A model generated the notes under the pieces. That model made no database searches, was not told the origin of the DNA, and saw only the letters and a program-made list of their open reading frames with translations. A stretch of DNA of 64,000 nt, taken from an archaeon. GTDB taxonomy: Archaea > Nanobdellota > Nanobdellia > SCGC-AAA011-G17 > GW2011-AR17. The stretch is taken from the NCBI GenBank assembly GCA_043814545.1, contig JBDRJY010000014.1:7617-71616 (forward strand). Reading direction: 5' to 3'. Shown one piece after another: positions 248 through 63,900 of the stretch. The translations under genes and the position numbers were made by a program. Within the stretch, counting starts at the first letter, position 1. Each line of letters opens with the position of its first letter.

Positions 248-322
248 TTAAGTTTTTTGAATTCGATTTGGTTTATAAACTTTTCCCCCGTCAAAAACAA
301 AGGCAAAAACTAAACAATAATC

Positions 323-14646: not shown

Positions 14647-16578
14647 ATGAAAAAGGGTGTGATTTGGATATTCTTTTTAGTTATATTTTCACAATTAGTA
14701 CTTGCTCTGGACACTAAAACAAAATCTTTAGGTGGTTTTCTTGGTTCTTTGTTTACTGACATAGGTTCTTTGTTTATTGATTTGTTAAATTTACTTTTTG
14801 GTACAAGCGAATATAGTATATTATTTTTGAAATTGATGTTGGTTATAATAATTGCAACAGCGTTGTATCGGCCTGCGTTAAACATTTTTCAGCATCAGAA
14901 GGTTTCACTTTTGATAACAATTCTTATAGGTTTTATTGGAGTAAGGTTCATGCCTGAGTCTACTATTACATTTTTAGGCAGATATATTATGATTGCCGTT
15001 ATTGCAGCGTTACCTTGGTTTCTTGGTAGATTCTTTTTACCGTCGGGCTGGCCGCAAACAATTTTTATAATTGCATCTTATGGAGTTATGGCATATTTTC
15101 TTTTGAACTTTAGTAGTTATTCAGGTTACTTGCCTGAATTGGGAAAAGTAGGTGGTGGCGCAGAAATATTTACTGATTTGGTTTACATGTTTGAACATTA
15201 TGCTTTATTTATTATAATTTTGTTTGTGATTATTGCTGTAATTGCATTATTTATTCGGTTTAGGGATCCTACAAGTCGTCGAAGTTGGTGGCGTCGAAGG
15301 GGAAGTGGTGATGCTGATGGTAACGGTCCGGATGGTGCAGGCTCTGATGGTGCTACTCCAGATGGTAGACCAAGTCGAAGTAGAAGTCGAAGCATTTTAA
15401 GTTACTTGTTTGTTTTAGCATTGGCAGCATTAGGCGCATTCTTTGTTTTTTCAGGTAATTATTATTGGGCTGGTGCAGTCGCATTAGCTTTAGTTGCATA
15501 TTTCCTTTTAACTTCCGGGAGACCATATGCGCAAAGGTCAAGGGCGGGTGCAAGAAGACATTGGTGGAAATGGGTTTTAGGAATTTTGATACTTTTAGGA
15601 GCATATTTTACTGTAGTTCAAGGCCAATATTGGTTAACAGTTGTTTTGCTTACAGTCTTACTTTTGATTTACTGGTTAGGAAAACCTAAACCAGGAGTAC
15701 GCGCTGTAGTTCCTTATAGTTGGGGTCAAAGAATTTGGGCTTTGATTTTTGGTTTTGGTATAGCTTTTGCTTTAACATATTTTGGGATAATTTATTTTGG
15801 ATATTTATATGGAATTTTGGCAGGTGCAGGTTGGGTGTTAATTTTATTTATTTATTATGTTATTAGGGGAAGAACAGGTTTCAGAACAATTACAGCTACG
15901 AGAGCACATCTCCGTACACGTTGGCTATGGTGGATTTTAACACCTTTAACATTAGCAGGTTCTGTTCTTTTAACAATATACATTGGATGGTGGGCTGGCG
16001 CAATTGGTTTAGGACTTTTAATTTTAATTTGGTTATCTACTTCACCTAAAGCAAGTACAGCAAGAGGACATGTTGGTACAGCTGGCACACATTTACGCTC
16101 ACGTTGGCTTTGGTACCTTGCCGGTATTATAACTTTAGTCGCATCTTTTGCAGTAACTTATTACATTGGATGGTGGGCAGGTGCAATTGGTTTAGGACTT
16201 TTAATTTTAATTTGGTTATTTTCTTCATCTAGAACAAGTGCTGGCGCAGTTAGAGGTCATTTCCATGCACGTTGGCTATGGTGGATAGTAGGATTTGTAA
16301 CATTAATTACAGCATTTTCATTGACTTATTTTGTACATTGGACATTTGGTGTTGCCGGTTTAGCTCTTTTGATAGTAATTTGGTTCATGATATCTTCAAG
16401 AGAGGGTGTACGCAGTGCTAGAACTCACAGCCAAGGACATTTATTATTCATTATTTTTGCAATAATTATGATTATTTTAACAGTTATAAATTTCATGGTT
16501 CCTGATCCGATACCTTGGATCGACGAAATATTAATGGTAGGGTTAGACATTTATTTGATAATCAAAGGTATAGACTAA
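14647..16578 (+). CDS. Large polytopic membrane protein built from tandem two-helix Trp-rich repeats with Arg/His-rich loops; function unknown
   Basis: 643 aa and almost entirely hydrophobic. It contains at least 5 consecutive units of about 56-61 aa of the form RxRWLWW...TL...YIGWWAGAIGLGLLILIWL...RGH. A Gly/Asp/Pro/Ser/Arg low-complexity linker (RRSWWRRRGSGDADGNGPDGAGSDGATPDGRPSRSRSRS) is also present. Confidence 0.7.
   Translation: MKKGVIWIFFLVIFSQLVLALDTKTKSLGGFLGSLFTDIGSLFIDLLNLLFGTSEYSILFLKLMLVIIIATALYRPALNIFQHQKVSLLITILIGFIGVRFMPESTITFLGRYIMIAVIAALPWFLGRFFLPSGWPQTIFIIASYGVMAYFLLNFSSYSGYLPELGKVGGGAEIFTDLVYMFEHYALFIIILFVIIAVIALFIRFRDPTSRRSWWRRRGSGDADGNGPDGAGSDGATPDGRPSRSRSRSILSYLFVLALAALGAFFVFSGNYYWAGAVALALVAYFLLTSGRPYAQRSRAGARRHWWKWVLGILILLGAYFTVVQGQYWLTVVLLTVLLLIYWLGKPKPGVRAVVPYSWGQRIWALIFGFGIAFALTYFGIIYFGYLYGILAGAGWVLILFIYYVIRGRTGFRTITATRAHLRTRWLWWILTPLTLAGSVLLTIYIGWWAGAIGLGLLILIWLSTSPKASTARGHVGTAGTHLRSRWLWYLAGIITLVASFAVTYYIGWWAGAIGLGLLILIWLFSSSRTSAGAVRGHFHARWLWWIVGFVTLITAFSLTYFVHWTFGVAGLALLIVIWFMISSREGVRSARTHSQGHLLFIIFAIIMIILTVINFMVPDPIPWIDEILMVGLDIYLIIKGID
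15919..16440 (+). repeat. Intragenic tandem DNA repeat: three units of about 170-180 bp (15919-16101, 16102-16269, 16270-about 16440), each beginning CGTTGGCT(A/T)TGGT
   Basis: Visible by eye: units 1 and 2 share long identical runs (e.g. ...tacattggatggtgggc(a/t)gg(c/t)gcaattggtttaggacttttaattttaatttggtta...). Unit 3 is more divergent. Two further degenerate units lie upstream at the protein level. Confidence 0.65.
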
Positions 16579-16624: not shown

Positions 16625-18556
16625 ATGAGCCTTCAGATATTATTAAAAAAAATTCAAGTGCACCACGATAAAGCGGATTTAGATTTGATTCGTAAAGCTT
16701 CTCGCTGGTCGGAAAAATATCATAAAGGTCAAAAGCGTGCATCTGGTGTAAGTTATTATCGGCACCCTTTAGCAGTTGCAAAAATTCTAGCAGATTTAAG
16801 GTTAGGCCCAATCACTATCGCTAGTGCTTTGTTGCATGATTTAGTTGAAGACACTGATGTTACTTTGAAAGATATTCGTAAAGAGTTTGGTGATGAGATA
16901 GGTAATATTATTGAAGGTTTGACAAAGATAGATAAATTAAGTGTTAAAGATCGTACTGAATATCATGCTGAAAGTATTCGTAAAGTAATGCTGGCTTCTG
17001 TTCAAGACATAAGAGTAATTTTCATTAAACTTGCTGATAAGTTACATAATATGCGTACTGTAGATGTTTTCCGTCCAGAAAAACGTAAACGTATTGCTAA
17101 AGAAGTTTTAGAAATTTATGCGCCTATTGCTTACAAGTTAGGTATAGCAACAATAAAATGGGAGCTTGAAGATTTAGCGTTTAGGCAGATTGAGCCAGAG
17201 ATTTATGAAGAACTTGCATTTAAAATTAAAAAAACTTCTAAGCAACGTGAAAAAGATTTACAACATATATCCGAAATTGTTAAAGAACTTTTAGAACAAA
17301 ATGGTATTCAAGTAAAAGTTTGTGGAAGACCAAAACACATTTACAGTATTTACAAAAAAATGTTACGTAAAAATTGTCGATTTTCAGAGATATATGATTT
17401 AACTGCATTACGTATCATAACAAAATCTGTTAAAGACTGTTATACTATTGTGGGTTTGTTACATAATAAATGGCGACCAGTACCAAAAGAGTTTGACGAT
17501 TACATTGCAATGCCTAAACCTAACATGTACCAGTCTTTGCACACTGTTGTTATCATTCCAGACGGTATTCCTGTCGAGATTCAAATTAGGACAACTGAAA
17601 TGGATCGTGTTGCTGAGGAAGGTATAGCTGCTCACTGGCGGTACAAAGGTGTTCATGGCGATGAAGATTTTGACACAAAGTTAAGTTGGATGCGACAAAT
17701 TTTGGACTGGCAACGCGAATCTAAAGACGCTAAAGAATTTATGGAAATGTTGCATATGGATTTTTTTGAAGACGAAATATTTTCTTTTACTCCTCAGGGG
17801 GATGTAGTTTCTTTACCTAAAGGCGCATGTGTTATTGATTTTGCTTATTCAATACATACTAATGTTGGCGATACTGCAATGGGGGGCAAAGTTAACGGAA
17901 AGTTTGTCCCTTTACGTACTGTTTTAAAAAATGGAGATATGGTAGAAGTTGTTACAGCTAAAAACCAAAAACCTTCCCGAGAATGGTTAAAGTTTGCAAA
18001 ATCTTCAAAAGCTAAAACTAAAATTCGACAATCTGTTGAACATTACGGAAAAATACCTGCAAGGGCTTTACAGAAAGTTAAAGAAGAAAAAAAAGAATTA
18101 GCAAAATGGATTATTAAAGTTGAAGGCATACGTGATCCGAACATAAACATTTCTAAATGTTGTTTACCTTTACCTGGCGACAAGATTGTTGGTTATGCTA
18201 CAGCATCTGACAAAGTAGCTATACACAAATTTGATTGTAAAAATATTAATAAAGTTAGTCGCGGTTCACGAAAAAAACCAGTAAAAGTAATTTGGATAGA
18301 CCGGATAGGGTCGGAAGTTAAATTAAAGGTTGACGCTGTTAATAGGGTAGGTTTGTTTGCAGAAATTCTTAATACTTTGGTTGCTAAGAAAACCAAAATT
18401 AAATCTGCTAATGCAAAACTTATTACTGGTAATATTGTAGAATGTTCTATCAACATAGAAATTGAAAGCCTGGGCCATTTACAAGATTTAATTAGAAGGA
18501 TAAATAAAATTAAAGATGTTAAGAAAGTTTTTATTGGAAATTTAATAGAAAAATAA
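16625..18556 (+). CDS. Bifunctional (p)ppGpp synthetase/hydrolase, long RelA/SpoT homolog (HD hydrolase + synthetase + TGS + ACT)
   Basis: HD motif HPLAVAKILADLRLGPITIASALLHDLVEDT. Synthetase core IYSIYKKM...RIITKSVKDCYTIVGLLHNKWRPVPKEFDDYIAMPKPNMYQSLHTVV. TGS region FTPQGDVVSLPKGACVIDFAYSIHTNVG. An ACT-like domain sits at the C-terminus. Confidence 0.85.
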   Translation: MSLQILLKKIQVHHDKADLDLIRKASRWSEKYHKGQKRASGVSYYRHPLAVAKILADLRLGPITIASALLHDLVEDTDVTLKDIRKEFGDEIGNIIEGLTKIDKLSVKDRTEYHAESIRKVMLASVQDIRVIFIKLADKLHNMRTVDVFRPEKRKRIAKEVLEIYAPIAYKLGIATIKWELEDLAFRQIEPEIYEELAFKIKKTSKQREKDLQHISEIVKELLEQNGIQVKVCGRPKHIYSIYKKMLRKNCRFSEIYDLTALRIITKSVKDCYTIVGLLHNKWRPVPKEFDDYIAMPKPNMYQSLHTVVIIPDGIPVEIQIRTTEMDRVAEEGIAAHWRYKGVHGDEDFDTKLSWMRQILDWQRESKDAKEFMEMLHMDFFEDEIFSFTPQGDVVSLPKGACVIDFAYSIHTNVGDTAMGGKVNGKFVPLRTVLKNGDMVEVVTAKNQKPSREWLKFAKSSKAKTKIRQSVEHYGKIPARALQKVKEEKKELAKWIIKVEGIRDPNINISKCCLPLPGDKIVGYATASDKVAIHKFDCKNINKVSRGSRKKPVKVIWIDRIGSEVKLKVDAVNRVGLFAEILNTLVAKKTKIKSANAKLITGNIVECSINIEIESLGHLQDLIRRINKIKDVKKVFIGNLIEK

Positions 18557-51325: not shown

Positions 51326-51835
51326 ATGGTTAAAGTTTTATTTGTAATAGCACAACATAATTTTCAAGACAAAGAATTTTCTGTGCCTAAAGATATTTTA
51401 GAAAGTAAAGGTTTTGAAGTTGTTGTTGCAAGTGTTAAGAAAGGCGAATGTGTTGGCATGTTTGGTTCAAAAGCTACGGCTGATGTTACAATTGATGAAG
51501 TTAATTCTAAGGATTATGATGCTTTGGTTTTGGTAGGTGGTTCAGGTGCAATTGTTTATGTTGAGAATAAAAAAGTTTTAAGTTTGGTTAAAGAAATGAA
51601 TACCGACAATAAAATAGTTGCAGCAATTTGTATTGCACCAGTAATTTTAGCAAAATCAGGTCTCTTAGAAGGTAAAAAAGCAACAGTCTATAATTTTCCT
51701 TTATCAAAACAATACTTTTCGTTACATAATGTTAAGAAGCTTGATGATAACGTTGTTGTTGATGGTAATATTATTACTGGTAACGGTCCGAAAGCAGCTG
51801 AAGAGTTTGGTAACGCAATTGCAGAAAAACTATGA
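51326..51835 (+). CDS. DJ-1/PfpI family protein (class I glutamine amidotransferase-like fold)
   Basis: DALVLVGGSGA and the nucleophile elbow AAICIAPVILAKSG. Confidence 0.75.
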   Translation: MVKVLFVIAQHNFQDKEFSVPKDILESKGFEVVVASVKKGECVGMFGSKATADVTIDEVNSKDYDALVLVGGSGAIVYVENKKVLSLVKEMNTDNKIVAAICIAPVILAKSGLLEGKKATVYNFPLSKQYFSLHNVKKLDDNVVVDGNIITGNGPKAAEEFGNAIAEKL

Positions 51836-53451: not shown

Positions 53452-54072
53452 ATGGTAACAAAAATCAAAATTAAAGAAACTGCACTTATAGTAATAGATA
53501 TTACCAATCAATGTTGTCATCCGAAGTATGAAATAAAAAAATGGAATTTGACATTCAATAAGATTAGAAAAATAGTCCCATCTTTAAAAAAGTTTATAAC
53601 AAAATATAGAAAAGCTGGTGGAAAAGTAATTTTTGTCAATTGCACCCCTTGGAAAAAAGAATTTTTAACTCCAAATATTATAGAATTGTATAAAGATCCG
53701 AAATGTAAATATTACTCTTCCGACAAATCAGGTTTTAGTGAAGAATTTTTTGAATTAGAACCAACAAAAGACGACTTAATTATCACTAAAAGCACATATG
53801 ATGCCTTTACCAACCCAAAATTAAATAAATATTTGAAAAAACAAAAAATCAAGTATGTTGTTATTACTGGTATTTTTGGTGATGGTTGTGTTCAATCTAC
53901 AATTCAAGGAGGATTTTCAGCAGGATATAATTTTATTATATTAAAAGATTTGATAGAAACCACAGATGTTCCCGTCAGACAAAAATTACAACAACTCTTG
54001 AAAAGATATACTTGGCCTGTTATGTTTGGCAAAACAATTTCTTCAAAAGAATTTTTTAAATTTGTAAAATAA
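53452..54072 (+). CDS. Isochorismatase-family cysteine hydrolase (nicotinamidase-like)
   Basis: TALIVIDITNQC is the N-terminal D/K motif region. VVITGIFGDGCVQST carries the catalytic Cys. Confidence 0.55.
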   Translation: MVTKIKIKETALIVIDITNQCCHPKYEIKKWNLTFNKIRKIVPSLKKFITKYRKAGGKVIFVNCTPWKKEFLTPNIIELYKDPKCKYYSSDKSGFSEEFFELEPTKDDLIITKSTYDAFTNPKLNKYLKKQKIKYVVITGIFGDGCVQSTIQGGFSAGYNFIILKDLIETTDVPVRQKLQQLLKRYTWPVMFGKTISSKEFFKFVK

Positions 54073-55629: not shown

Positions 55630-56556
55630 ATGAGAATCTTAGTTACAGGCGGTGCAGGTTTTATCGGTTCACATTTATGTGAAACTTTGTTAAGGCAAGG
55701 CCATTATGTAATTTGTTTAGACAATTTTTATTGTAGTTCTAAGGAAAATATTAGACATTTGATTCCTCATCCCAACTTTGAACTTATTAGACACGACATT
55801 ACAGAATCGTTAAGAATAGAAGTTGACCAGATTTATAATTTAGCATGTCCAGCTTCACCAGTACATTACCAAAAAAATCCTATTAAAACAGTTAAGACAA
55901 ATGTTTTAGGAATTGTAAACATGTTAGGTTTAGCTAAGAGAACTGGCGCAAGAATTTTACAAGCTTCAACTTCAGAAGTTTACGGTAACCCATTAGAACA
56001 TCCACAAACTGAAAAATATTGGGGCAATGTTAATCCGATAGGTGTAAGAAGTTGTTACGATGAAGGTAAGCGTGTGGCTGAAACTTTAATGATGGATTAT
56101 TACAGGCAAAACCAGGTTGATATTCGTATTGTAAGAATCTTTAACACTTACGGTCCAAGAATGGCTAAGAACGATGGTCGTGTAGTACCAAACTTCATTA
56201 ACCAGGCTTTGTTAGGCCAAGACATAACTGTGTACGGTGATGGTGAACAAACACGATCTTTCTGTTATGTTTCAGAATTAGTTGACGGTATGATGAAAAC
56301 AATGAACTCTGAAAACTTTACAGGTCCTGTTAACTTAGGCAACCCGACAGAATATACAATGATCCAGTTAGCTGAAACAATTATAAAATTGACTAACTCA
56401 CAATCTCGATTAATTTACCAAGAGTTACCTTCTGACGATCCAGTTAAACGTAAACCTGATATAACTTTAGCAAGGGAAAAGTTAGGTTGGGTACCTAAGA
56501 TAGAGTTGGAAGAAGGTTTAAGAACAACTATTGAACATTTTAAGCAACGGCTTTGA
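55630..56556 (+). CDS. UDP-glucuronate decarboxylase (UDP-xylose synthase) / NAD-dependent sugar epimerase-dehydratase
   Basis: [21 protein letters not shown]...[18 protein letters not shown] closely resembles UXS. The short-chain dehydrogenase/reductase catalytic Tyr/Lys region is present. Confidence 0.8.
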
Positions 56557-56557
56557 T

Positions 56558-56655
56558 TTTTGCCTTTGGCTGTGTATATAAAAAGTAATGTTTAATTTGT
56601 AATGAGGTTATTTGTTTTTTAGGTTGTGTTTTAATTATTTGGTTTGTGGACAAAA
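56558..56655. repeat. Intergenic repeat element copy A (about 100 bp); copy B lies at 62682-62780 and the GTTTGTGGACA core recurs at 63453-63463
   Basis: A: tttgcctttggctgtgtata...aggttgtgttttaattatttggtttgtggacaaaa. B: tttgccttcggctgtgtaca...agattgtgttttaattgtttgatttgtggacagat. Identity is about 75%, and both lie just upstream of +strand genes. Confidence 0.5.
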
Positions 56656-56696
56656 TAGATAGATTTTTAAAAAATACTTATTCTCTGATTAATAAA

Positions 56697-56987
56697 ATGA
56701 GTCTAATTGAATTAACAGAAGATGATGAAAACTTTTTTTTAGATGGCGAAATCCAAGGTTTTGTTTGCAGCGAAAATGGAAATGCTTTAGTCTTAAATTC
56801 ACCTATTTCTTTAGCTATTGAAGGTTCTGCCATGAGAAAATTCTATTTAGCTGATGAACCACCAACATTATATATTCAATATCAAAATTCTGTAACTGAT
56901 AATTTGGTTCCACTTAAACTTGGGAAGGTTAGCGATGTTGGAAAAGCAGAAAAATGGATTGAAAGAGTTAATAAATTATATGAATAA
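56697..56987 (+). CDS. Small hypothetical protein (97 aa)
   Basis: The ATG at 56697 (MSLIELTEDD...) is the preferred start, because the tracked ORF start at 56646 lies inside the repeat element. Confidence 0.35.
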   Translation: MSLIELTEDDENFFLDGEIQGFVCSENGNALVLNSPISLAIEGSAMRKFYLADEPPTLYIQYQNSVTDNLVPLKLGKVSDVGKAEKWIERVNKLYE

Positions 56988-57050
56988 CTTCTGTCTTTAA
57001 ATCCACTGGTTAATGGATAAAAACTCCTAAACCCGTAAGGAAAAACTAAT

Positions 57051-57611
57051 TTAAATTAATCTAAGAAAATTCTTAATTAAAGTTTCACCGTCTTTATCTG
57101 AACATTCAGGATGAAACTGTACACCGAACAAAGGTTTTTTCTTATGTTTCATTGCTAAAACATCAACAAAGTCAGATGAAGCTAATAACATAAAATCTTC
57201 AGGAATTTTTACAATATACTCTTCGTGGTTACAATACATTTGACATTTATCAAGACCTTTAAAGATTTGACCTTCTTTATGCACAATTACACGTTTAGTA
57301 CCTTCGATAGCAAACCCTAAGTTTCTTAATGTAGAACCGTTCAAGAAACCGATTAACTGATGACCGAAACAGATACCTAACACAGGCTTATCATAATTTT
57401 TTAGAAAACGATAACAGCGTAGAACTTTCCTTTGAACTTTAGCTTCAGCTAGCATTAAAGGCGATCCTGAAAGAATTAAACCGTCAAACTTATCCATGTT
57501 AGTTTTTGGTATTTGGTTTATTGTAACTGTTTTATATTTAACTTTAAGTTTATCAAGTATTTTAGTTAAATCAGGAAAGAATTTTGAACCATTATCAACA
57601 ACACCAAGCAT
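57051..57611 (-). CDS. Class I glutamine amidotransferase, most like archaeal GMP synthase subunit A
   Basis: GICFGHQLIG catalytic Cys region. ...IFKGL... and ...LFGVQFHPE... are conserved in GuaA-A/GATase1. Confidence 0.6.
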   Translation of the reverse strand: MLGVVDNGSKFFPDLTKILDKLKVKYKTVTINQIPKTNMDKFDGLILSGSPLMLAEAKVQRKVLRCYRFLKNYDKPVLGICFGHQLIGFLNGSTLRNLGFAIEGTKRVIVHKEGQIFKGLDKCQMYCNHEEYIVKIPEDFMLLASSDFVDVLAMKHKKKPLFGVQFHPECSDKDGETLIKNFLRLI

Positions 57612-57730
57612 ATTATTACCTAATATAATTTGGATTTATAAGTTTTGCCTAAATAATCTTAAGAATAATGGTGTTCATATATTATTTGGACGCCAAATCT
57701 TTTTATATCATATATGTCCGTGGATTTGTT

Positions 57731-58249
57731 ATGGAAATCGTTGAATATGAAGGTTATAGAATTCCTGTAGGAAATCATAAAGGTAAAAAGATTGTGATAG
57801 GTTGCGACCACAGAGGTTATGATTTGAAAGAAAAGTTAAAAATCTTTTTAGTATCACACGGTTATAAAGTTGTAGATGTAGGTTGTCAAAGTTCAGAACG
57901 TTGCGATTATCCTATATATTCTCGCGCTGTTGGCAAGTTAGTATATGAAGACGAAACTTTTGGCACTGTAGGGATAGGTATTTGCGGTTCTGGTATAGGA
58001 ATAAGTATACCTGCTTCTAAATTTAAAGGAGTATATCCAGGGTTATGTGTTAATGTAGAACAAGCTAAAAGTACTAGAAAACATAATAATACTAATTATT
58101 TATCTTTGCCAGCTGACCAGTTAGATTTTGAAAAAGCCAGACAGATTGTTGAAGCTTGGCTTGAAGAACCTTTCTTTTCTACAAAAGATGAAGAATCATA
58201 TTTGAAACGGTTTGTACAAACTCTTGAAGTTGAAGAAGAAGTTTATTGA
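57731..58249 (+). CDS. rpiB: Ribose-5-phosphate isomerase B (RpiB/LacAB family)
   Basis: KIVIGCDHRGYDLKE...VGC...GIGICGSGIGISI. The start was placed at the in-frame ATG at 57731. Confidence 0.75.
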   Translation: MEIVEYEGYRIPVGNHKGKKIVIGCDHRGYDLKEKLKIFLVSHGYKVVDVGCQSSERCDYPIYSRAVGKLVYEDETFGTVGIGICGSGIGISIPASKFKGVYPGLCVNVEQAKSTRKHNNTNYLSLPADQLDFEKARQIVEAWLEEPFFSTKDEESYLKRFVQTLEVEEEVY

Positions 58250-58578
58250 TTTCTTTTATATTTATCTTCTACTCTTACGATATCGTTTTCGTTAAAATTA
58301 CCATAAGATATTTCTAAGAATTTTAAAGGTCCAATGGCACGGTGTTTGGTTCCTCGTTTAATAAAAAACTCATCCCCTGGCTTAGTTTCAAATGTTTCAT
58401 CGTTTAAAATAACTTTTCCACCGCCTTCCAATATTTTCCAAAACTCGTCTCTATTATTATGATACTGGTAAGATAACGGTTCGTTGGGTTTAACTGTAAT
58501 AATTTTAACTGTCGTTGTTTCGTTATGCGTGTACTGTTCAAAGTTACCCCACGGTCTGTGGTCGATTATTTTTTTCAT
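58243..58578 (-). CDS. Cupin-domain protein (mannose-6-phosphate isomerase-like small cupin)
   Basis: RPWGNFEQY...KPNEPLSYQYHNNRDEFWKILEGGGKV...PGDEFFIKRGTKHRAIG are cupin motifs 1 and 2. Confidence 0.6.
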   Translation of the reverse strand: MKKIIDHRPWGNFEQYTHNETTTVKIITVKPNEPLSYQYHNNRDEFWKILEGGGKVILNDETFETKPGDEFFIKRGTKHRAIGPLKFLEISYGNFNENDIVRVEDKYKRNQ

Positions 58579-58645
58579 ATATTATGAAATAGATTTAGTA
58601 TATTTAAATAATATCTAAGTAAGATTTATATATAATAGTGAATTC

Positions 58646-59473
58646 TTGATTGAGATGCCATTACAAGCAATTTTATTTGACTGGTCAGGAACTTTAAGCC
58701 ACGACTTAGATGTTGTTTTAAAAACCCAGAACGAACAGTTTATAGCAATAGGCGCATTACCTCGTGCTTTAGAAGAACAGGACAAATTTTATGCTGAACG
58801 CGGGCAACGTCAGATGGTAGGTGCGCAAGAAATAACAAAACAATTTTACCAATCAGAGATGGAATTGCCTTACATGAAATGGTATTCTCGTTTTACAGAT
58901 TGTCCGAAAGAAAGAATTGATAAAATCTTTTTTGAAATTTATACTAGAAATGCTCACGAAACCTCTATTATTCCAGGGGCAGAAAATGTATTACAGTACT
59001 TAAAAATTAATTGTATAAAATCTTTGGTACTTTCAGCTTCTCAACAACCACATATTGAAAAAGAAATTGCAAGATATAATCTTGAAGGTTTATTTGATGA
59101 AGTTAAAGGTAGTTGTTATGATAAAAGGGATGATATTAAAGAATTAATGAACAAACACGGATTAATACCTTACAAAACAATATTTATTGGCGACATGGTA
59201 CACGATGTTGAAACAGCTTTACATGCTGGCATTATTTCAGTAGCTGTATCTCATCCTAAATCTAGTTATACAATTAAAGAAAAATTGTTAAAGGCTAACC
59301 CTCATTATATTATTGAAGATATAAAATCTTTAATACCATTAGCAGAATTATTAAGACAGTGGCCTATATCTGAGTTAATGCCTCACCAAACATATGAAGA
59401 AAGGCCGATAATGATTGAAAATGAAACGAATTTTAAGTCCCTCGCTGCTAGGTTACGAAGATCAGTTAGATGA
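58646..59473 (+). CDS. HAD-superfamily hydrolase (phosphatase-like; motif I variant DWSGT)
   Basis: AILFDWSGTLSHD and ...IGDMVHDVETALHAGIISVAVSH (motif IV). Overlaps the next gene by about 50 nt. Confidence 0.5.
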   Translation: MIEMPLQAILFDWSGTLSHDLDVVLKTQNEQFIAIGALPRALEEQDKFYAERGQRQMVGAQEITKQFYQSEMELPYMKWYSRFTDCPKERIDKIFFEIYTRNAHETSIIPGAENVLQYLKINCIKSLVLSASQQPHIEKEIARYNLEGLFDEVKGSCYDKRDDIKELMNKHGLIPYKTIFIGDMVHDVETALHAGIISVAVSHPKSSYTIKEKLLKANPHYIIEDIKSLIPLAELLRQWPISELMPHQTYEERPIMIENETNFKSLAARLRRSVR

Positions 59474-60188
59474 GAAGTTATCTTTTATTCTTGATATGAT
59501 TGAAGTTGGCATAGTTAACATGCACATTGACGTTATGGCTCCGCCTTTTATTTCTGACACGAATAAATTTTCTTTAGAGAAATTTAAATTTTTGTATGGC
59601 AAATTGAAAGGTAAGTGTAGTTTTGATATTCACTTTATGTTATCTAATCCTATTCCTTATATTGAATCTTTGGATTTTATTGAAAATAAAAATAAAATTA
59701 TATTAACAATACATATGGAAAGTTTTAGAACTTTTTCTGGGGGATTAGAAAGGTTTAATTCTAAAGATTATGATTTGATTAAATCAGATAATGTAAGGTT
59801 AAGGCAAGCTGATTTAGAAATAAAAAATAAAATTGTTAAAACTTTAGAAATGATTAAAGGTAAAGGATTTAAGACAGGTATTGCATTAGAACCAGGAACA
59901 TCTTTAGAAAATTTAACACCTTTGGTAATGGAAAATGTGGATTTAGTTTTGTTAATGAGTGTTGTTTCTGGTGCTGGCGGTCAAAAGTATCATGATTATG
60001 TTACTGAGAAAATAAAAAATGTTAAAAATAATTTTCCGTCGGTAATTGTGCAAGTTGACGGCGGCGTGAATGAAGAAACTTTACCGATAGTTATTGAAGC
60101 TGGCGCTGATAACATTGTAATTGGTTCTTATATTACAAATGAAGAAGATGTTAAAGGAAGAGTGAAAGAAATTCTAAATTTATTATGA
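59415..60188 (+). CDS. rpe: Ribulose-phosphate 3-epimerase-like (divergent)
   Basis: ILSPSLL, ...MHIDVMAPPFISD (variant of HVDVMDGHFVPN), ...GGQKY... and VDGGVNEETL. Confidence 0.55.
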   Translation: MKMKRILSPSLLGYEDQLDEKLSFILDMIEVGIVNMHIDVMAPPFISDTNKFSLEKFKFLYGKLKGKCSFDIHFMLSNPIPYIESLDFIENKNKIILTIHMESFRTFSGGLERFNSKDYDLIKSDNVRLRQADLEIKNKIVKTLEMIKGKGFKTGIALEPGTSLENLTPLVMENVDLVLLMSVVSGAGGQKYHDYVTEKIKNVKNNFPSVIVQVDGGVNEETLPIVIEAGADNIVIGSYITNEEDVKGRVKEILNLL

Positions 60189-60284
60189 TTAAAATATTTT
60201 AATTTTTGGTAGATATAAATCATTCAATTATAAAACAAAAGCTTTTTATAATAAATAATAAATAAATAATAAAGAGGTGAAATT

Positions 60285-60557
60285 ATGCCAACAAAAAAAC
60301 TTAAAGTAAAAACACAGGCAGGAAAAATAATTGAATATCCTGTCTCAAAAGTTAAAAGAATTCTTTCAGACGCAGGTTATAGTGGTAAGATTTTGGTTAA
60401 TGCTACCGGAGAAGTTTTTAAAGAAGCTAAAAAACTGACCAAAGGTGGAGTAATCACAGCAACGAATTTGCAGAAAGCTATTGTTGTATCAGTTGCAAAA
60501 ACTAATAACACTGTTATTAACTCAGCGCAAAAAATCGTAAAAAGAGTTCTGAAATAA
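60285..60557 (+). CDS. Small basic hypothetical protein (90 aa)
   Basis: AAAGAGGTGA SD 5 nt upstream. A T-rich tract follows the stop. No motif recognised. Confidence 0.3.
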   Translation: MPTKKLKVKTQAGKIIEYPVSKVKRILSDAGYSGKILVNATGEVFKEAKKLTKGGVITATNLQKAIVVSVAKTNNTVINSAQKIVKRVLK

Positions 60558-60587
60558 TTTTTATTTTTTTTATTTTTATTATGGGGA

Positions 60588-61616
60588 TTAATCAACAATA
60601 ACTGTCTCTAATTGCGGCAACAAACAAAAATCAGTTTTAAAATTGTAAGCTCCAGCGTTAAGAAAAACTAGTTTATCGCCAACTTTAGGATTTTTCAAAT
60701 AAACTCTGTAACGGAATATATCCATTGAGTCAGGTGTACAACCTTTTATAGTAAAACCTTCGCCGTTTTCTAATTCTCCGTCGACAAGTAACCGAACATG
60801 TGCGATAAACGTATCCATTGCAGCATTATACACTGAAGCGTTAACAATAATATTATTTTTATAAACATTAACAATTTCTGTTTCTAATTGTACACAGGGT
60901 GCAGCAATAAAGCGTCCAGGTTCAATAATAAACTCTTTACCAACTAACCATTTACGTAAAGTTTCAATTTCATTAAAGATTTTAACAAACAGTTTATCAG
61001 TACGAGAATTTTTGTAACGCATAGGCATACCACCACCCATGTTTAATATGTCAATAGCTTCAAAAGTTTCAGGTGTAATAACTTGTTCAAGCTCAGTTTT
61101 CATTGACCATTCGCTAATGTTTTGCGTTTTACGATGAAAATGTATGCCTAATTTGTTTACAAGTTTATTTTTTTTCAACTTAGGAACTAACTTATTAACT
61201 TCGTCTGAATACATTCCGAAAACAAAATGCTTTCCGGTATGGATTGTATTTTCTTTCAACTTCATCCGTAATAACAAATTAATTGAAATAGAATGTTTCT
61301 CAATATAATTTAATAAAACTTGTAAATCTTTACGATTATCTACGACAAATGATTCACACTTTAACGAAAACACAGAATCTAATTCACTACCGTTAAGCCC
61401 TTGGGCAAAAAACCAAGCTCGTTTACAATCACTAAGACATTCTAAACTTGCAACAGAATGTACAGAAAACATACAATCGGTTTCTTTATCTAACAACTTA
61501 CCAACTTCAAAATTTGTTTTCAAACTGTAAGAAACAGTGTCACACATAGATTTCATAATAGAATATTGTTCCATCATCTTAGATTTACTTAAAACAAACT
61601 TAGCTTTACTAATCAT
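60588..61616 (-). CDS. PLP-dependent fold-III decarboxylase (Orn/DAP/Arg/carboxy(nor)spermidine decarboxylase family), short form
   Basis: ...YSLKTNF (PLP-Lys region), ...MGGGMPMRY (Gly-rich loop), EPGRFIAAP and AGAYNF. A 4-nt overlap with the upstream deoxyhypusine synthase gene indicates an operon. Confidence 0.6.
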   Translation of the reverse strand: MISKAKFVLSKSKMMEQYSIMKSMCDTVSYSLKTNFEVGKLLDKETDCMFSVHSVASLECLSDCKRAWFFAQGLNGSELDSVFSLKCESFVVDNRKDLQVLLNYIEKHSISINLLLRMKLKENTIHTGKHFVFGMYSDEVNKLVPKLKKNKLVNKLGIHFHRKTQNISEWSMKTELEQVITPETFEAIDILNMGGGMPMRYKNSRTDKLFVKIFNEIETLRKWLVGKEFIIEPGRFIAAPCVQLETEIVNVYKNNIIVNASVYNAAMDTFIAHVRLLVDGELENGEGFTIKGCTPDSMDIFRYRVYLKNPKVGDKLVFLNAGAYNFKTDFCLLPQLETVIVD

Positions 61617-62551
61617 TCTAAAAGACCTTCCTCATCTAACCGTTCTAAAACATTAACCATTACCAATGGAAACGTAATAGTTACGTCACCGATAACAGTA
61701 GCTGCATCAGAATCGTCTTTAATCTTACCCCAGCTTTTAGCTTCATTAGTTGTCGCACCGCTCATACTACCAGAACTAGAATGCGCAGTAGTCAAATAAA
61801 CAGCATAATCTAAACCGCCGTTTAACAAACAAGATAAGATTGCGTGATGTTTAGATATGCTACCACCTAAGGTAATAAGACCCTTCTTTTCATCCTGGCT
61901 GGTAGATAACAAAATATTTTTAAAATCATGTACAACATCTACAATAAAATCTGGATGTTTTTCTTGAAACATAAACAAATGGAACCCAAAAGAACCGTCA
62001 GTTATAGCAGGACAAAAGATTGGCACATCGTTCTTAGCAGCTTGGTAAAGAATAGAATCCTCATCAGTCATCATCAAACCAATTTCTTTAAACAATTCAG
62101 AAGGTGTCCATCTTTTCTTTTTTTCATACAATTTAGCTAATATAGGTAATAAAAGATCTTCAAACTTACAATAACTTTCATTAGTAACAAACAAGTTACC
62201 TACTCTGTTAACCCCTTTCTCATACAATTCAACGTCATCTGACTTAAAATCTCCAATGATAAACTTCTCGCCAGCAGCTTTCATGATATCTTCTTCAATA
62301 CCGCCAACAGTAGTTACAATAACATCAGCCATTTTGTTTTGGATAACTTGTGCAAAGAAACCACGTAAACCGGAAGTGACCATGTTAGAAGTGAATGTGA
62401 AGAATATTGTAGCCTGTTCTTTCTTCATCTTAACAATTACGTCTGCTGCGTTAGAAAGTTGGATACTTTGAAAACCTAAGTTTTTATACTGAGTAACCAA
62501 ATCCTTAACTTTCATACCTTTTTCCCATTTTAGATCTTGTACATATGCCAT
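61613..62551 (-). CDS. dys: Deoxyhypusine synthase
   Basis: ...IFFTFTSNMVTSGLRGFFAQVIQNKMADVIVTTVGGIEEDIMKAAG... and ...ITLGGSISKHHAI... are typical of DHS. Confidence 0.8.
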   Translation of the reverse strand: MAYVQDLKWEKGMKVKDLVTQYKNLGFQSIQLSNAADVIVKMKKEQATIFFTFTSNMVTSGLRGFFAQVIQNKMADVIVTTVGGIEEDIMKAAGEKFIIGDFKSDDVELYEKGVNRVGNLFVTNESYCKFEDLLLPILAKLYEKKKRWTPSELFKEIGLMMTDEDSILYQAAKNDVPIFCPAITDGSFGFHLFMFQEKHPDFIVDVVHDFKNILLSTSQDEKKGLITLGGSISKHHAILSCLLNGGLDYAVYLTTAHSSSGSMSGATTNEAKSWGKIKDDSDAATVIGDVTITFPLVMVNVLERLDEEGLLE

Positions 62552-62843
62552 TTTTTAGAATAAATCTCCTAAATATTATGGTAACTAACTAAAAGAATTA
62601 ACTGTGAGCTCTAACATTATCAGTTTTATTTACCATGTAGTAAAGAAAAAATAGATTGTTTATAAAGGTTTTGATTTGGTCTTTGCCTTCGGCTGTGTAC
62701 AGAGAATGTTGTGTTTTGTTTATGTTAAGATTGTTCGTATTTTAGATTGTGTTTTAATTGTTTGATTTGTGGACAGATTCGTTATATTTATATAGGGAAG
62801 GTTTTCTAATTTTCTATCATAATAATTACTTGGAGGCAATAAA

Positions 62844-63410
62844 ATGAAAAATATTAAAACACTTTCCGACAAAGCTGTTCTAAAAAGATGGGAAGCGGAT
62901 TGTTTAGAAGAATTAGCTAAGAAATTAAGACATGGAAGAAATCTAACAAGGATATTAAATCCATTGAATGAAAATACTTATTTTAATAATCTACGGATTA
63001 ACCAAAAATTTGCCGATTTATACGCAGATATGTTATTTACTAATGAAACAGCTGATGAAGCTGATGAATATGATAAATTATTTATGAAGGTTGTAAGGCA
63101 TGCCGATAATTTTAAAGTTATACATGCTTTTGCTGAAGCTGGAGACCCATTATGTCAACGTTTAATAGAAAACACTAATAATTCAACAATTCAGCACGAA
63201 CCAGCCTTGATTTATTGGGGAATTGAATTTTCACCAATTGCTACAAAGTTATTAACAAGAACAATGACCGAAGAAGAATATAACGGATATTTGAATGGAA
63301 CTTTACCTATTTACGAAAAGAAAGATTGGAATCTTCCTGGAGAGGACAAGACTTTTCCTGGGATTAATATTCCTGATGTAGAAGCAATTTATTTGCCACA
63401 AGGGGAATAA
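62844..63410 (+). CDS. Hypothetical protein (188 aa)
   Basis: A GGAGG SD lies 8 nt upstream. No motif recognised. Confidence 0.35.
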   Translation: MKNIKTLSDKAVLKRWEADCLEELAKKLRHGRNLTRILNPLNENTYFNNLRINQKFADLYADMLFTNETADEADEYDKLFMKVVRHADNFKVIHAFAEAGDPLCQRLIENTNNSTIQHEPALIYWGIEFSPIATKLLTRTMTEEEYNGYLNGTLPIYEKKDWNLPGEDKTFPGINIPDVEAIYLPQGE

Positions 63411-63482
63411 TGTTTTCTTTTTATTCTTTTTATTCTATCCATAAATCAACTGGTTTGTGGACATAATAAAAGAAAGAAAAAA

Positions 63483-63900
63483 TTATTTTTTTTCAATCAT
63501 TTCAAATACATCAGCATTATAGGGTATTGGTTTGTGGTTTCCGATTTCATTATCCAATTCAGTAAGATTATCAAACCATCTTCCAGAGATTTCTTTAAAT
63601 GGAAGTTTTGAACCAAGATCTAATGCAGTCTTTTTCATAGCTTCATATCTTCTCTCACTTGCATTAGTGGAGATTGTAAGCTGTGTAGCAAATAGATTTC
63701 TATCTTCTTTCTGTTTTATTCCACCAAATTTAAGTTCTACACATCCAATACCTAATTTTTTATTCCCAATAATTCTTTGGTCATAATAGGTGTTGCCTCC
63801 AGCAGTATTTGGTGAATAGACTATTCCAATTTCAGAGCATATACTATCAAATCTTTCTCTATCTATTCTTTCTTCCAATTCTACGAACCATGTGTCTGAC
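63483..63900 (-). CDS. Hypothetical protein (139 aa)
   Basis: The start was set at MSDTWF, which is preceded by GGAGG-N8-ATG. The tracked longer ORF would overlap the upstream gene end. Confidence 0.4.

What the first reader, a model, noticed from the sequence alone, without database searches (positions are those of the whole stretch)
56558..56655. Roughly 100-bp intergenic element present twice (56558-56655 and 62682-62780, about 75% identical) with a conserved GTTTGTGGACA core that recurs a third time at 63453-63463
Both full copies start TTTGCCTT(T/C)GGCTGTGTA and end AG(G/A)TTGTGTTTTAATT(A/G)TTTG(G/A)TTTGTGGACA(A/G)A, and each sits 40-60 bp upstream of a +strand gene start (56697 and 62844). 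The third core occurrence lies in a convergent 3' intergenic region. This could be a shared promoter/operator for a regulon, a small structured RNA gene, or a miniature mobile or repeat element.
Basis: seen in the sequence. Interest (0 to 1): 0.5.

Follow-up and report, generated by a model that had tools for sequence, protein, structure and literature searches.

The report
Shared flanks of two accessory genes
Two strain-specific genes of unknown function in an uncultivated DPANN archaeon share a ~120-bp upstream non-coding region and a 27-bp motif on both sides of each gene. This is most likely a shared regulatory module, not a structured RNA or a widespread mobile repeat.

Summary
The repeat is real. 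Windows 56552-56669 and 62675-62792 are 76% identical over 118 ungapped bases, about 20 SD above shuffled controls. The genome is a DPANN archaeon (Woesearchaeota/Nanoarchaeota-like), so archaeal BRE/TATA promoter rules apply.

Each copy has a conserved 5' block (88%), a variable middle (61%) and a conserved 3' block (89%). The core TGGTTTGTGGACA ends 11 nt before the best-scoring TATA box of the downstream gene, just upstream of a non-consensus BRE. That is the usual position of an archaeal activator site.

A 27-nt motif taken from the 3' block has exactly four strong matches in 64 kb, all on the + strand. They bracket ORF96 (56697-56987) and ORF188 (62844-63410).

Both units are missing from the closest relatives. 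Copy A plus ORF96 is a clean 507-bp insertion. No Rfam family matches, the fold is no better than shuffles, and the + strand has almost no C. Nothing related turned up in genome, viral, phage, plasmid or metagenome collections apart from the same organism. No integrase, transposase or reverse transcriptase is in the window.

Best reading: shared promoter-proximal regulatory flanks of two accessory single-gene units. A recombination-site role for the 27-nt motif is not excluded.

The parts
56552..56576 (+). Copy A, conserved 5' block (TTTGATTTTTGCCTTTGGCTGTGTA) with a 3-bp hairpin GCC-TTT-GGC. It starts at the stop codon of the epimerase/dehydratase gene.
   Evidence: 88% identical to copy B over 25 nt. 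Pattern found twice against 0.09 expected. It marks the left edge of the 507-bp insertion relative to L001.
56577..56617 (+). Copy A, variable middle segment; G/T-rich and C-free.
   Evidence: 61% identical to copy B. 0 C in 56571-56650.
56618..56655 (+). Copy A, conserved 3' block. It holds the 27-nt motif (56629-56655) and the core TGGTTTGTGGACA (56640-56652).
   Evidence: 89% identical to copy B. Top PWM hit in the window.
56656..56671 (+). Predicted BRE/TATA of ORF96 (TAGATAGATTTTTAAA; TATA at 56664-56671), 25 nt before the ATG. This is a leaderless-type spacing.
   Evidence: Best promoter-PWM hit in the intergenic region, score 7.4. The genome-wide mode is 22-26 nt from motif end to ATG.
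56697..56987 (+). ORF96, a hypothetical protein with no homologues other than itself.
   Evidence: In-frame codon-usage score of 0.47, like real genes. Only a self hit among 5.8 billion proteins. Annotated as ABIF40_03990 in the NCBI MAG.
56996..57022 (+). Fourth copy of the 27-nt motif (TTTAAATCCACTGGTTAATGGATAAAA), 9 nt after the ORF96 stop codon.
   Evidence: Rank 4 of 127,948 positions for a PWM trained on copies A and B only. 20/27 identical to the 63440 copy.
62675..62699 (+). Copy B, conserved 5' block (TTTGGTCTTTGCCTTCGGCTGTGTA). It abuts the divergent DHS promoter.
   Evidence: Homology to relatives L001-L003 stops at 62678. A similar block, TTTTTGCCTTCGCAGGTTGTGTCA, is present in L002/L003 at the same locus.
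62700..62740 (+). Copy B, variable middle segment.
   Evidence: 61% identical to copy A. 2 C in 80 nt.
62741..62778 (+). Copy B, conserved 3' block with the 27-nt motif (62752-62778) and the core TGATTTGTGGACA (62763-62775).
62779..62794 (+). Predicted BRE/TATA of ORF188 (TCGTTATATTTATATA; TATA at 62787-62794), 49 nt before the ATG, with a GGAGG Shine-Dalgarno at 62832-62836.
   Evidence: Best + strand promoter-PWM hit, score 9.1. The leadered class with GGAGG is seen at other genes of the window.
62844..63410 (+). ORF188, a member of a small uncharacterised DPANN protein family (conserved GDPLC ... LLTRTMTEKEYNGYLNGxLP).
   Evidence: 24 distant homologues in 1.8 billion representatives, named hypothetical proteins of Woesearchaeota/archaeon. 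Alignment A8. No Pfam, PDB or NCBIfam match. Codon score 0.40.
63418..63481 (.). Imperfect 31-nt-arm palindrome between convergent ORF188 and ORF163. Its right arm is the third 27-nt motif copy (63440-63466; core 63451-63463).
   Evidence: Inverted repeat I1. RNA fold -22.6 kcal/mol, z = -5.1, 0 of 200 shuffles as stable. PWM rank 3.
62659..62674 (-). Canonical BRE/TATA (TCAAAACCTTTATAAA) of the divergent deoxyhypusine synthase operon. It defines the left limit of unit B.
   Evidence: Promoter-PWM score 15.0. Conserved in L001-L003.

Best explanation
The repeat is the shared non-coding 5' flank of two accessory, strain-specific single-gene transcription units in a DPANN archaeal chromosome.

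Shown: each unit has a ~100-bp upstream module (conserved 5' block, variable spacer, conserved 3' block), then a BRE/TATA core promoter, then the ORF, then a second copy of the 27-nt motif in the 3' flank. Both units are absent from the closest relatives.

Inferred mechanism: the 27-nt motif, with its core TGGTTTGTGGACA, is a binding site for one sequence-specific DNA-binding protein. In the 5' flank it ends 4 nt upstream of a BRE that departs from the genome consensus. From there the bound protein would help or hinder TFB/TBP recruitment and so co-regulate the two genes. This is the way archaeal activators such as TFB-RF1, EarA, Ptr2 or the ara-box factor work on weak BRE/TATA promoters.

The role of the 3'-flank copies is inferred least securely. 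They may be a second operator, used for looping or as a roadblock, or a unit boundary. The two modules are paralogous (76% identical). Most likely one was copied from the other, or both came from a common source, with selection keeping the two end blocks.
For: - The repeat is highly significant.
- Conservation is uneven: end blocks 88-89%, middle 61%, Fisher p = 0.0016, with the blocks chosen after seeing the data.
- The organism is archaeal.
- A de novo promoter motif from 30 window genes is GCAAAACCTTTATATA, ending 22-26 nt before the ATG or 42-61 nt in leadered genes.
- The best + strand promoter hits lie just downstream of the core, with the same 11-nt core-to-TATA gap in both copies. The spacings to the ATG are 25 nt and 49 nt plus GGAGG.
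- Their BRE halves (TAGATAGA, TCGTTATA) do not match GCAAAACC, and their scores (7.4, 9.1) are in the lower range.
- Archaeal activators typically bind just upstream of the BRE at promoters whose BRE/TATA deviate from consensus (PMC5512572).
- The 3' block itself scores poorly as a promoter on either strand.
- Both ORFs have host-like codon usage.
- Intergenic repeats that carry promoters have an archaeal precedent in halovirus HF2 (PMC8707807).
Against: - Only two promoters carry the module, and no further gene in 64 kb does.
- A pure operator model does not predict a motif copy downstream of each ORF in the same orientation.
- No candidate regulator is linked to the units.
- No transcript or binding data exist.
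- The near-absence of C on the + strand is unexplained.
- The TATA and TSS positions are predictions from a PWM built on 30 genes.
Confidence: 0.4

Rival explanations
1. Cassette boundaries or recombination sites. The 27-nt motif copies that bracket each ORF in direct orientation would be sites for a site-specific recombinase or transposase acting in trans. The ~0.5-0.8-kb units (5' module, promoter, ORF, 3' motif) would be small non-autonomous mobile cassettes.
For: - Four motif copies, all on the + strand, bracket exactly the two accessory ORFs and occur nowhere else in 64 kb.
- Unit A is a clean 507-bp insertion between genes that abut in L001.
- Homology to three relatives stops exactly at the left edge of unit B.
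- Both left junctions follow GGYTTTGATTT.
- The 63440 copy lies between two convergent terminator-like T-runs, outside both transcription units.
- Integrons and CALINs exist in Nanoarchaeota (PMC9668308).
Against: - The empty site in L001 has no motif copy, so motif-by-motif integration is not indicated.
- There are no terminal inverted repeats and no clear target duplication.
- No attC-type R''/R' cores were seen, and the 5' copies cannot form hairpins because C is absent.
- No integrase, transposase or RT is present in any window ORF.
- Only two units exist, 76% identical.
- No copy was found in 596 Gb of genomes, IMG/VR, phages, plasmids or JGI metagenomes apart from the same organism.
- ORF188 homologues sit in ordinary chromosomal contexts elsewhere.
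Confidence: 0.22
2. Non-functional relic. A ~165-bp upstream region, plus a bit of 3' flank, was duplicated once by illegitimate or homologous recombination. It is decaying neutrally, and the apparent blocks and motif copies have no present function.
For: Only two copies, restricted to one lineage. The B-locus 5' block looks ancestral, being present in L002/L003, which suggests copy A is a secondary duplicate.
Against: Divergence is not uniform: 61% in the middle against 88-89% at the ends. The core-to-TATA spacing is conserved. The motif recurs in both 3' flanks, which a single duplication of an upstream region does not explain.
Confidence: 0.15
3. Small RNA gene. One version is a + strand GU-rich RNA. 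The other is a - strand G-free, CA-rich ~60-70-nt RNA running from the 3' block towards the GCC-RAA-GGC hairpin. The conserved ends would serve as promoter and 3' handle, and the variable middle as an antisense or guide segment.
For: The layout is conserved ends around a variable middle. Base composition is extremely strand-asymmetric, which would give an unstructured - strand RNA. A short conserved hairpin has a loop change T/C that keeps the stem. The 3' block resembles the neighbouring DHS promoter read on the - strand, 21/27 (D1).
Against: No Rfam match. No fold is better than shuffles on either strand. One compensatory pair only. The promoter PWM gives at most 3.5 for the A-copy 3' block on the minus strand, and no hit within the 3' block ranks among the top six in either intergenic region. 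No conserved terminator. No C/D or H/ACA box arrangement.
Confidence: 0.08

Closest known systems
Archaeal activator-dependent promoters with an upstream binding site next to a weak BRE (TFB-RF1/pf1089, EarA/fla operon, ara-box, Ptr2)
   Same: A conserved site sits immediately upstream of a BRE/TATA whose BRE departs from the genome consensus, at a fixed spacing to the TATA box (principle from PMC5512572).
   Different: The sequence is unrelated to the known sites as far as I recall them. No regulator is identified. Extra motif copies lie downstream of the genes. There is a further conserved 5' block about 70 nt upstream.
Halovirus HF2 intergenic repeats that carry promoters (PMC8707807)
   Same: Repeated intergenic sequences of tens of bp in an archaeal genetic element, lying upstream of genes and associated with promoter activity.
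   Different: HF2 repeats are in a virus genome, in many copies of 29 or 58 bp, and contain the promoter. Here there are two chromosomal copies of ~120 bp, and most of the repeat lies upstream of the core promoter.
Phage 'morons' (independent promoter-ORF-terminator units inserted between genes that are adjacent in related genomes)
   Same: Unit A is exactly such an insertion: 507 bp with its own predicted promoter, between the epimerase and GATase genes, which abut in L001.
   Different: The context is a housekeeping archaeal chromosome with no prophage genes. Codon usage is host-like. The two units share flanks.
Integron gene cassettes / CALINs, now known in Nanoarchaeota (PMC9668308)
   Same: Single-ORF units of 0.5-0.8 kb with a repeated site at the unit boundaries. 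The 3' site of unit B is an imperfect palindrome.
   Different: Units are dispersed, not in an array. Each has its own promoter. There are no RYYYAAC/GTTRRRY cores and no IntI. The 5' copies cannot fold. The empty site lacks the motif.

Membership tests
Any Rfam RNA family | Covariance-model match at or near the gathering score | tested here: not met
   Only two tRNAs in the whole window at gathering. Nothing overlaps the element at E<=10 in 56400-63700.
Structured small RNA (generic) | Fold more stable than shuffled sequence, and compensatory changes between copies | tested here: not met
   z = +1.19 and -0.64 (+ strand), -0.30 and +0.51 (- strand). Consensus -7 kcal/mol with 1 compensatory pair from 2 sequences.
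Archaeal BRE/TATA promoter with upstream activator site | TATA box at the genome's canonical distance from the start codon or TSS | tested here: met
   TATA ends 25 nt (A) and 49 nt plus GGAGG (B) before the ATG. The genome modes are 22-26 and 42-61 nt.
Archaeal BRE/TATA promoter with upstream activator site | BRE deviates from consensus, and a conserved site lies directly upstream of it | tested here: met
   BRE halves are TAGATAGA and TCGTTATA against the consensus GCAAAACC. The core ends 11 nt before the TATA in both copies.
Archaeal BRE/TATA promoter with upstream activator site | A protein binds the site and changes transcription | not testable with these tools
   Uncultivated organism. 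No expression or binding data are available here.
Integron cassette / attC | attC with RYYYAAC ... GTTRRRY cores and a foldable imperfect palindrome | tested here: not met
   By inspection of the sequences, no such cores flank either the 5' modules or the 3' flanks; no pattern or attC-model search was run. The 5' modules do not fold. Only the B 3' flank is palindromic.
Integron cassette / attC | Integron integrase and/or an array of attC sites | tested here: not met
   No Phage_integrase or other recombinase domain in the window ORFs. The units are 6 kb apart and separated by housekeeping genes.
MITE / IS-derived element | Terminal inverted repeats and a target-site duplication | tested here: not met
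   No TIR between the unit ends. The junctions CTTTGA... and ...ATCTAA give no clear duplication.
MITE / IS-derived element | Many copies in the genome or in related genomes | tested here: inconclusive
   Two copies in 64 kb. None in relatives L001-L003. None in the genome, viral or metagenome scans apart from the same organism. The rest of this genome could not be read.
IS200/IS605-type element or PATE | Subterminal hairpins at both ends and a TnpA/TnpB gene | tested here: not met
   The left-end motif copies cannot form hairpins. No Y1 transposase or TnpB domain found. The shared left flank TTTGATTT is only suggestive.
Diversity-generating retroelement TR/VR pair | Mismatches confined to adenines of one copy; a reverse transcriptase nearby; the VR inside a coding region | tested here: not met
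   15 of 28 substitutions involve A in copy A. The rest are G>A, T>C, T>A, T>G and G>T. No RT found, and both copies are non-coding.

The most novel reading that the evidence does not exclude
The 27-nt direct repeats are recombination sites of a so far undescribed DPANN cassette-exchange system. It would move or swap promoter-bearing single-gene units between chromosomal sites without attC-type hairpins or a linked integrase. The 5' module would be the arm of the site.
Probability: 0.12. Interest if true: 0.7.

Novelty: new member of a known kind. Interest (0 to 1): 0.3.

Why it matters
If the regulatory reading is right, this gives a concrete candidate cis-element: a defined 13-nt core at a fixed distance from the TATA box. 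It would serve to study transcription control in DPANN archaea, for which almost no regulatory sites are known. It would also show how newly acquired accessory genes are wired by copying an existing upstream module.

If the minority reading is right (motif as recombination site), it would point to a new way in which tiny archaeal genomes exchange single genes.

As it stands this is a lineage-restricted, two-copy feature of modest general interest.

Tried and rejected
- **Rfam**, at gathering and at E<=10: nothing.
- **Single-strand folds of both copies on both strands, and RNAalifold:** no signal.
- **Paralogy of the two downstream proteins:** none.
- **Exact-pattern scans** with the 3' block in genome contigs (one chance hit in Neptunicella), in IMG/VR with the 3' block, the 5' block and the 3'-flank motif (chance hits only, checked with nhmmer and local alignment), and in JGI metagenomes (54 hits, of which only L036 is real, and it is 100% identical to window 55788-57122).
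- **BLAST against phages and plasmids,** DNA and protein: no match.
- **PHROGs and PADLOC** for the ORFs: nothing credible.
- **AlphaFold2 single-sequence models** of ORF188 and ORF96: pLDDT 37 and 46, unusable, so no fold search was run.
- **Profile of the ORF188 family** against PDB and NCBIfam: nothing.
- **Exact-protein look-ups** to extend beyond the window or find other strains: DHS, ORF96, ORF188, ORF163 and GATase are not on record.
- **DGR TR/VR idea:** rejected on the substitution spectrum.
- **attC, MITE and IS200/IS605 ideas:** rejected or left inconclusive (see membership tests).
- **The 3' block as a promoter in its own right:** rejected on PWM scores.
- **Conserved small peptide in the element:** rejected. 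The short ORFs differ between the copies (reading).
- **Upstream regions of ORF188 homologues** (L083-L088): no match to the element profile.

Full report
**Observation**

The longest direct repeat in the window is 56552-56669 vs 62675-62792: 118 nt without gaps, 76% identical. A local alignment of the two intergenic regions scores 59. Dinucleotide-preserving shuffles give 14.4 +/- 2.2 (maximum 25), and random window segments reach at most 18.

The 5' block TTTGCCTTYGGCTGTGTA occurs twice against 0.09 expected. The 11-mer GTTTGTGGACA alone is not significant. An nhmmer profile of the two copies finds only these two full copies in the window and a weak third hit at 63445-63467.

**Organism and setting**

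The deoxyhypusine synthase at 61613-62551 (-) is 100% identical to a protein of an NCBI 'MAG: archaeon'. Its next relatives are from Woesearchaeota/Nanoarchaeota MAGs. The window is therefore part of a DPANN archaeal chromosome with about 32% G+C.

The gene content is housekeeping: aminoacyl-tRNA synthetases, FtsZ, PEP synthase, ABC transporters and sugar-nucleotide enzymes. No integrase, transposase or reverse transcriptase domain was found in any ORF (same calls). Archaeal BRE/TATA rules apply here, not sigma-70 rules.

**Anatomy of the repeat**

Conservation is uneven (Fisher p = 0.0016, blocks chosen post hoc):

| Segment | Length | Identity |
|---|---|---|
| 5' block | 25 nt | 88% |
| Middle | 41 nt | 61% |
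| 3' block | 36 nt | 89% |

I cannot explain this.

**Promoters**

I derived the promoter of this genome de novo from 30 upstream regions of the window. The motif is GCAAAACCTTTATATA. It ends 22-26 nt before the ATG in most genes (leaderless type), or 42-61 nt before it in genes that also show a GGAGG-type Shine-Dalgarno.

- In intergenic region A the best hit is 56656-56671 (TAGATAGATTTTTAAA), 25 nt before the ATG of ORF96.
- In region B the best + strand hit is 62779-62794 (TCGTTATATTTATATA), 49 nt before the ATG of ORF188, with GGAGG at 62832-62836.
- In both copies the core TGGTTTGTGGACA ends 11 nt before the TATA box, about 4 nt upstream of a BRE that does not resemble the consensus.
- The 3' block itself, with its TTTTAATT, scores poorly as a promoter on either strand.

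It is not the promoter itself.

**A 27-nt motif brackets both ORFs**

I trained a PWM only on the 27-nt end of the 3' block of copies A and B and scanned both strands of the window (127,948 positions). The training sites rank first and second. Fourth is 56996-57022, in the 3' flank of ORF96.

With all four sites in the PWM, they score 30.6-34.4. The next position scores 16.7 and is the palindromic partner of the 63440 site. After that comes 13.0. All four are on the + strand.

The 63440 copy forms the right arm of a 31-nt-arm imperfect palindrome between the convergent ORF188 and ORF163. Its fold is -22.6 kcal/mol, z = -5.1. The 56996 copy forms only a weak hairpin.

**The downstream genes**

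ORF96 and ORF188 are not similar to each other. Both have in-frame codon-usage scores like bona fide genes of the window, and both are annotated as hypothetical proteins in the NCBI MAG.

ORF96 has no homologue other than itself. ORF188 has none in the word-indexed search. The exhaustive HMMER search finds 24 distant relatives. They are hypothetical proteins of Woesearchaeota and unclassified archaea with a conserved GDPLC ... LLTRTMTEKEYNGYLNGxLP signature and no Pfam, PDB or NCBIfam match. One homologue lies in an ordinary chromosomal context.

**Comparison with relatives**

Three loci from close relatives were recovered through the DHS protein: L001 (90% DHS identity) and L002/L003 (96%). 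None contains the element.

- **Locus A.** The epimerase and glutamine amidotransferase genes abut in L001. The window has a clean 507-bp insertion (56557-57063) that begins with the 5' block and contains ORF96 and the 3' motif.
- **Locus B.** All three relatives are homologous to the window up to 62678, the end of the canonical DHS promoter on the minus strand (TCAAAACCTTTATAAA, PWM score 15.0). Beyond that point they differ from the window. L001 also differs from L002 and L003, which are identical to each other there.
- **A possible ancestral 5' block.** L002/L003 carry a 5'-block-like sequence (TTTTTGCCTTCGCAGGTTGTGTCA) on the far side of an extra 191-aa gene at this locus. The 5' block may therefore be ancestral at locus B, and copy A may be a secondary copy. 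A related 12-mer also lies upstream of a tRNA gene, at window 298 on the minus strand.

**Wider searches**

| Search | Result |
|---|---|
| 3' block in 596 Gb of species-representative genomes | one chance hit |
| Three patterns in IMG/VR | chance hits only |
| 3' block in JGI metagenomes | only a 1,335-bp contig 100% identical to the window |
| Phage and plasmid collections | no match |

The pattern scans require exact matches at 16-20 specified bases, so diverged copies would be missed. The rest of this genome could not be read.

**RNA hypotheses**

No Rfam family matches, even at E<=10. Neither strand of either copy folds better than shuffles. The consensus fold is -7 kcal/mol with a single compensatory pair. 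No canonical promoter is placed to drive either strand.

A G-free minus-strand RNA with conserved ends and a variable middle remains imaginable, but nothing here supports it beyond composition.

**Mobile-element hypotheses**

In favour:
- The units are strain-specific.
- They share defined left ends.
- They are bracketed by a direct 27-nt motif.
- Both left junctions follow GGYTTTGATTT.

Against:
- There are no terminal inverted repeats or clear target duplication.
- No attC cores were seen.
- The left copies cannot form hairpins.
- The empty site in L001 has no motif.
- No recombinase is present in the window.
- Only two units are known anywhere.

A DGR template/variable repeat pair is excluded by the substitution spectrum.

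**Most likely mechanism**

I take the repeat to be the shared regulatory 5' flank of two accessory single-gene transcription units. The conserved core is a protein-binding site placed where archaeal activators act on promoters with weak BRE/TATA elements (PMC5512572). It would co-regulate the two genes.

This part is inference. The spacing, the non-consensus BRE and the uneven conservation are shown. Binding and regulation are not.

The 3'-flank copies fit this model poorly. They are the main reason to keep the recombination-site model alive. I put the models at about 0.40 (regulatory), 0.22 (recombination or cassette boundary), 0.15 (neutral relic) and 0.08 (sRNA).

**Relation to known systems and novelty**

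The closest analogies are:
- activator-dependent archaeal promoters (TFB-RF1, EarA, ara-box, Ptr2);
- the promoter-carrying intergenic repeats of halovirus HF2 (PMC8707807);
- phage morons, for the insertion architecture of unit A;
- integron cassettes, now known in Nanoarchaeota (PMC9668308), whose defining features are not met here.

The sequence belongs to no described family. The kind of thing, a duplicated upstream regulatory module on accessory genes, is known. Interest is modest at 0.3: a real, clean, lineage-restricted feature with one unusual trait, the same motif on both sides of each gene, that deserves a whole-genome and read-level check.

Noticed in passing
L083 1-2052 (JGI Ga0485326_054638; holds P0123, a 38%-identical homologue of ORF188): Each of three consecutive small ORFs is bracketed by its own perfect 14-15-nt inverted repeat: 100-113/496-509, 979-993/1205-1219 and 1403-1416/1963-1976. 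The contig also has four direct copies each of AATTnnnnCTAATTATGTTAGGC and AAAAGCTTTAGCTTTT. A different sequence pair for each gene suggests 5'-3' pairing at the RNA level or unit boundaries. Unexplained.
   Followed up: partly
window 62552-62674 (- strand): The canonical DHS promoter lies about 107 nt upstream of the DHS start codon, which implies a leader of about 80 nt. The leader sequence is well conserved in L001-L003. It shows only weak structure: -15 kcal/mol, z = -1.5, one compensatory pair in 3 sequences. It could be a regulatory leader of the DHS-ornithine/arginine decarboxylase operon.
   Followed up: partly
window 56571-56650 and 62694-62773: The + strand has 0 and 2 cytosines in 80 nt, against 15% in the genome. 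No explanation found.
   Followed up: partly
window 62652-62678 vs 62743-62769: The DHS promoter region (TAGATTGTTTATAAAGGTTTTGATTTG) is 78% identical over 27 nt to the 3' block of copy B (TAGATTGTGTTTTAATTGTTTGATTTG) (D1). This could be chance in T-rich DNA, or a hint that the 3' block derives from a promoter duplication.
   Followed up: no
L082 1-1206 (JGI Ga0180007_10218120, same sample as the window organism): The contig is 99.6% identical to window 62962-63189, inside ORF188. It then continues with unrelated sequence, including a prepilin-like N_methyl ORF. This is either strain-level recombination inside ORF188 or an assembly chimera.
   Followed up: partly
window 16625-18556 (+): A full-length RelA/SpoT-type protein (HD_4, RelA_SpoT, TGS and ACT domains) is encoded in this DPANN archaeon. 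To my knowledge long RSH enzymes are uncommon in archaea, so this is possibly a bacterial acquisition.
   Followed up: no
window 15901-16305: Three tandem repeats of about 168-183 nt lie inside the 643-aa ORF 14647-16578, which has no Pfam match (D2/D3).
   Followed up: no
window 298-309 (- strand), upstream of the tRNA at 173-247: The 12-mer TTTTTGCCTTTG, identical to the start of copy A's 5' block, lies upstream of a tRNA gene. Its reverse complement contains GGCAAAAAC, which resembles the BRE half of the genome's promoter consensus.
   Followed up: partly
window 51326-51835, 53452-54072, 57668-58578, 59415-60557: Several other genes are present in the window but absent from, or uncalled in, the syntenic region of L001: DJ-1/PfpI, isochorismatase, RpiB, cupin, ribulose-phosphate epimerase and a 90-aa ORF. 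None carries the element. Gene content in this region therefore varies generally between relatives.
   Followed up: no
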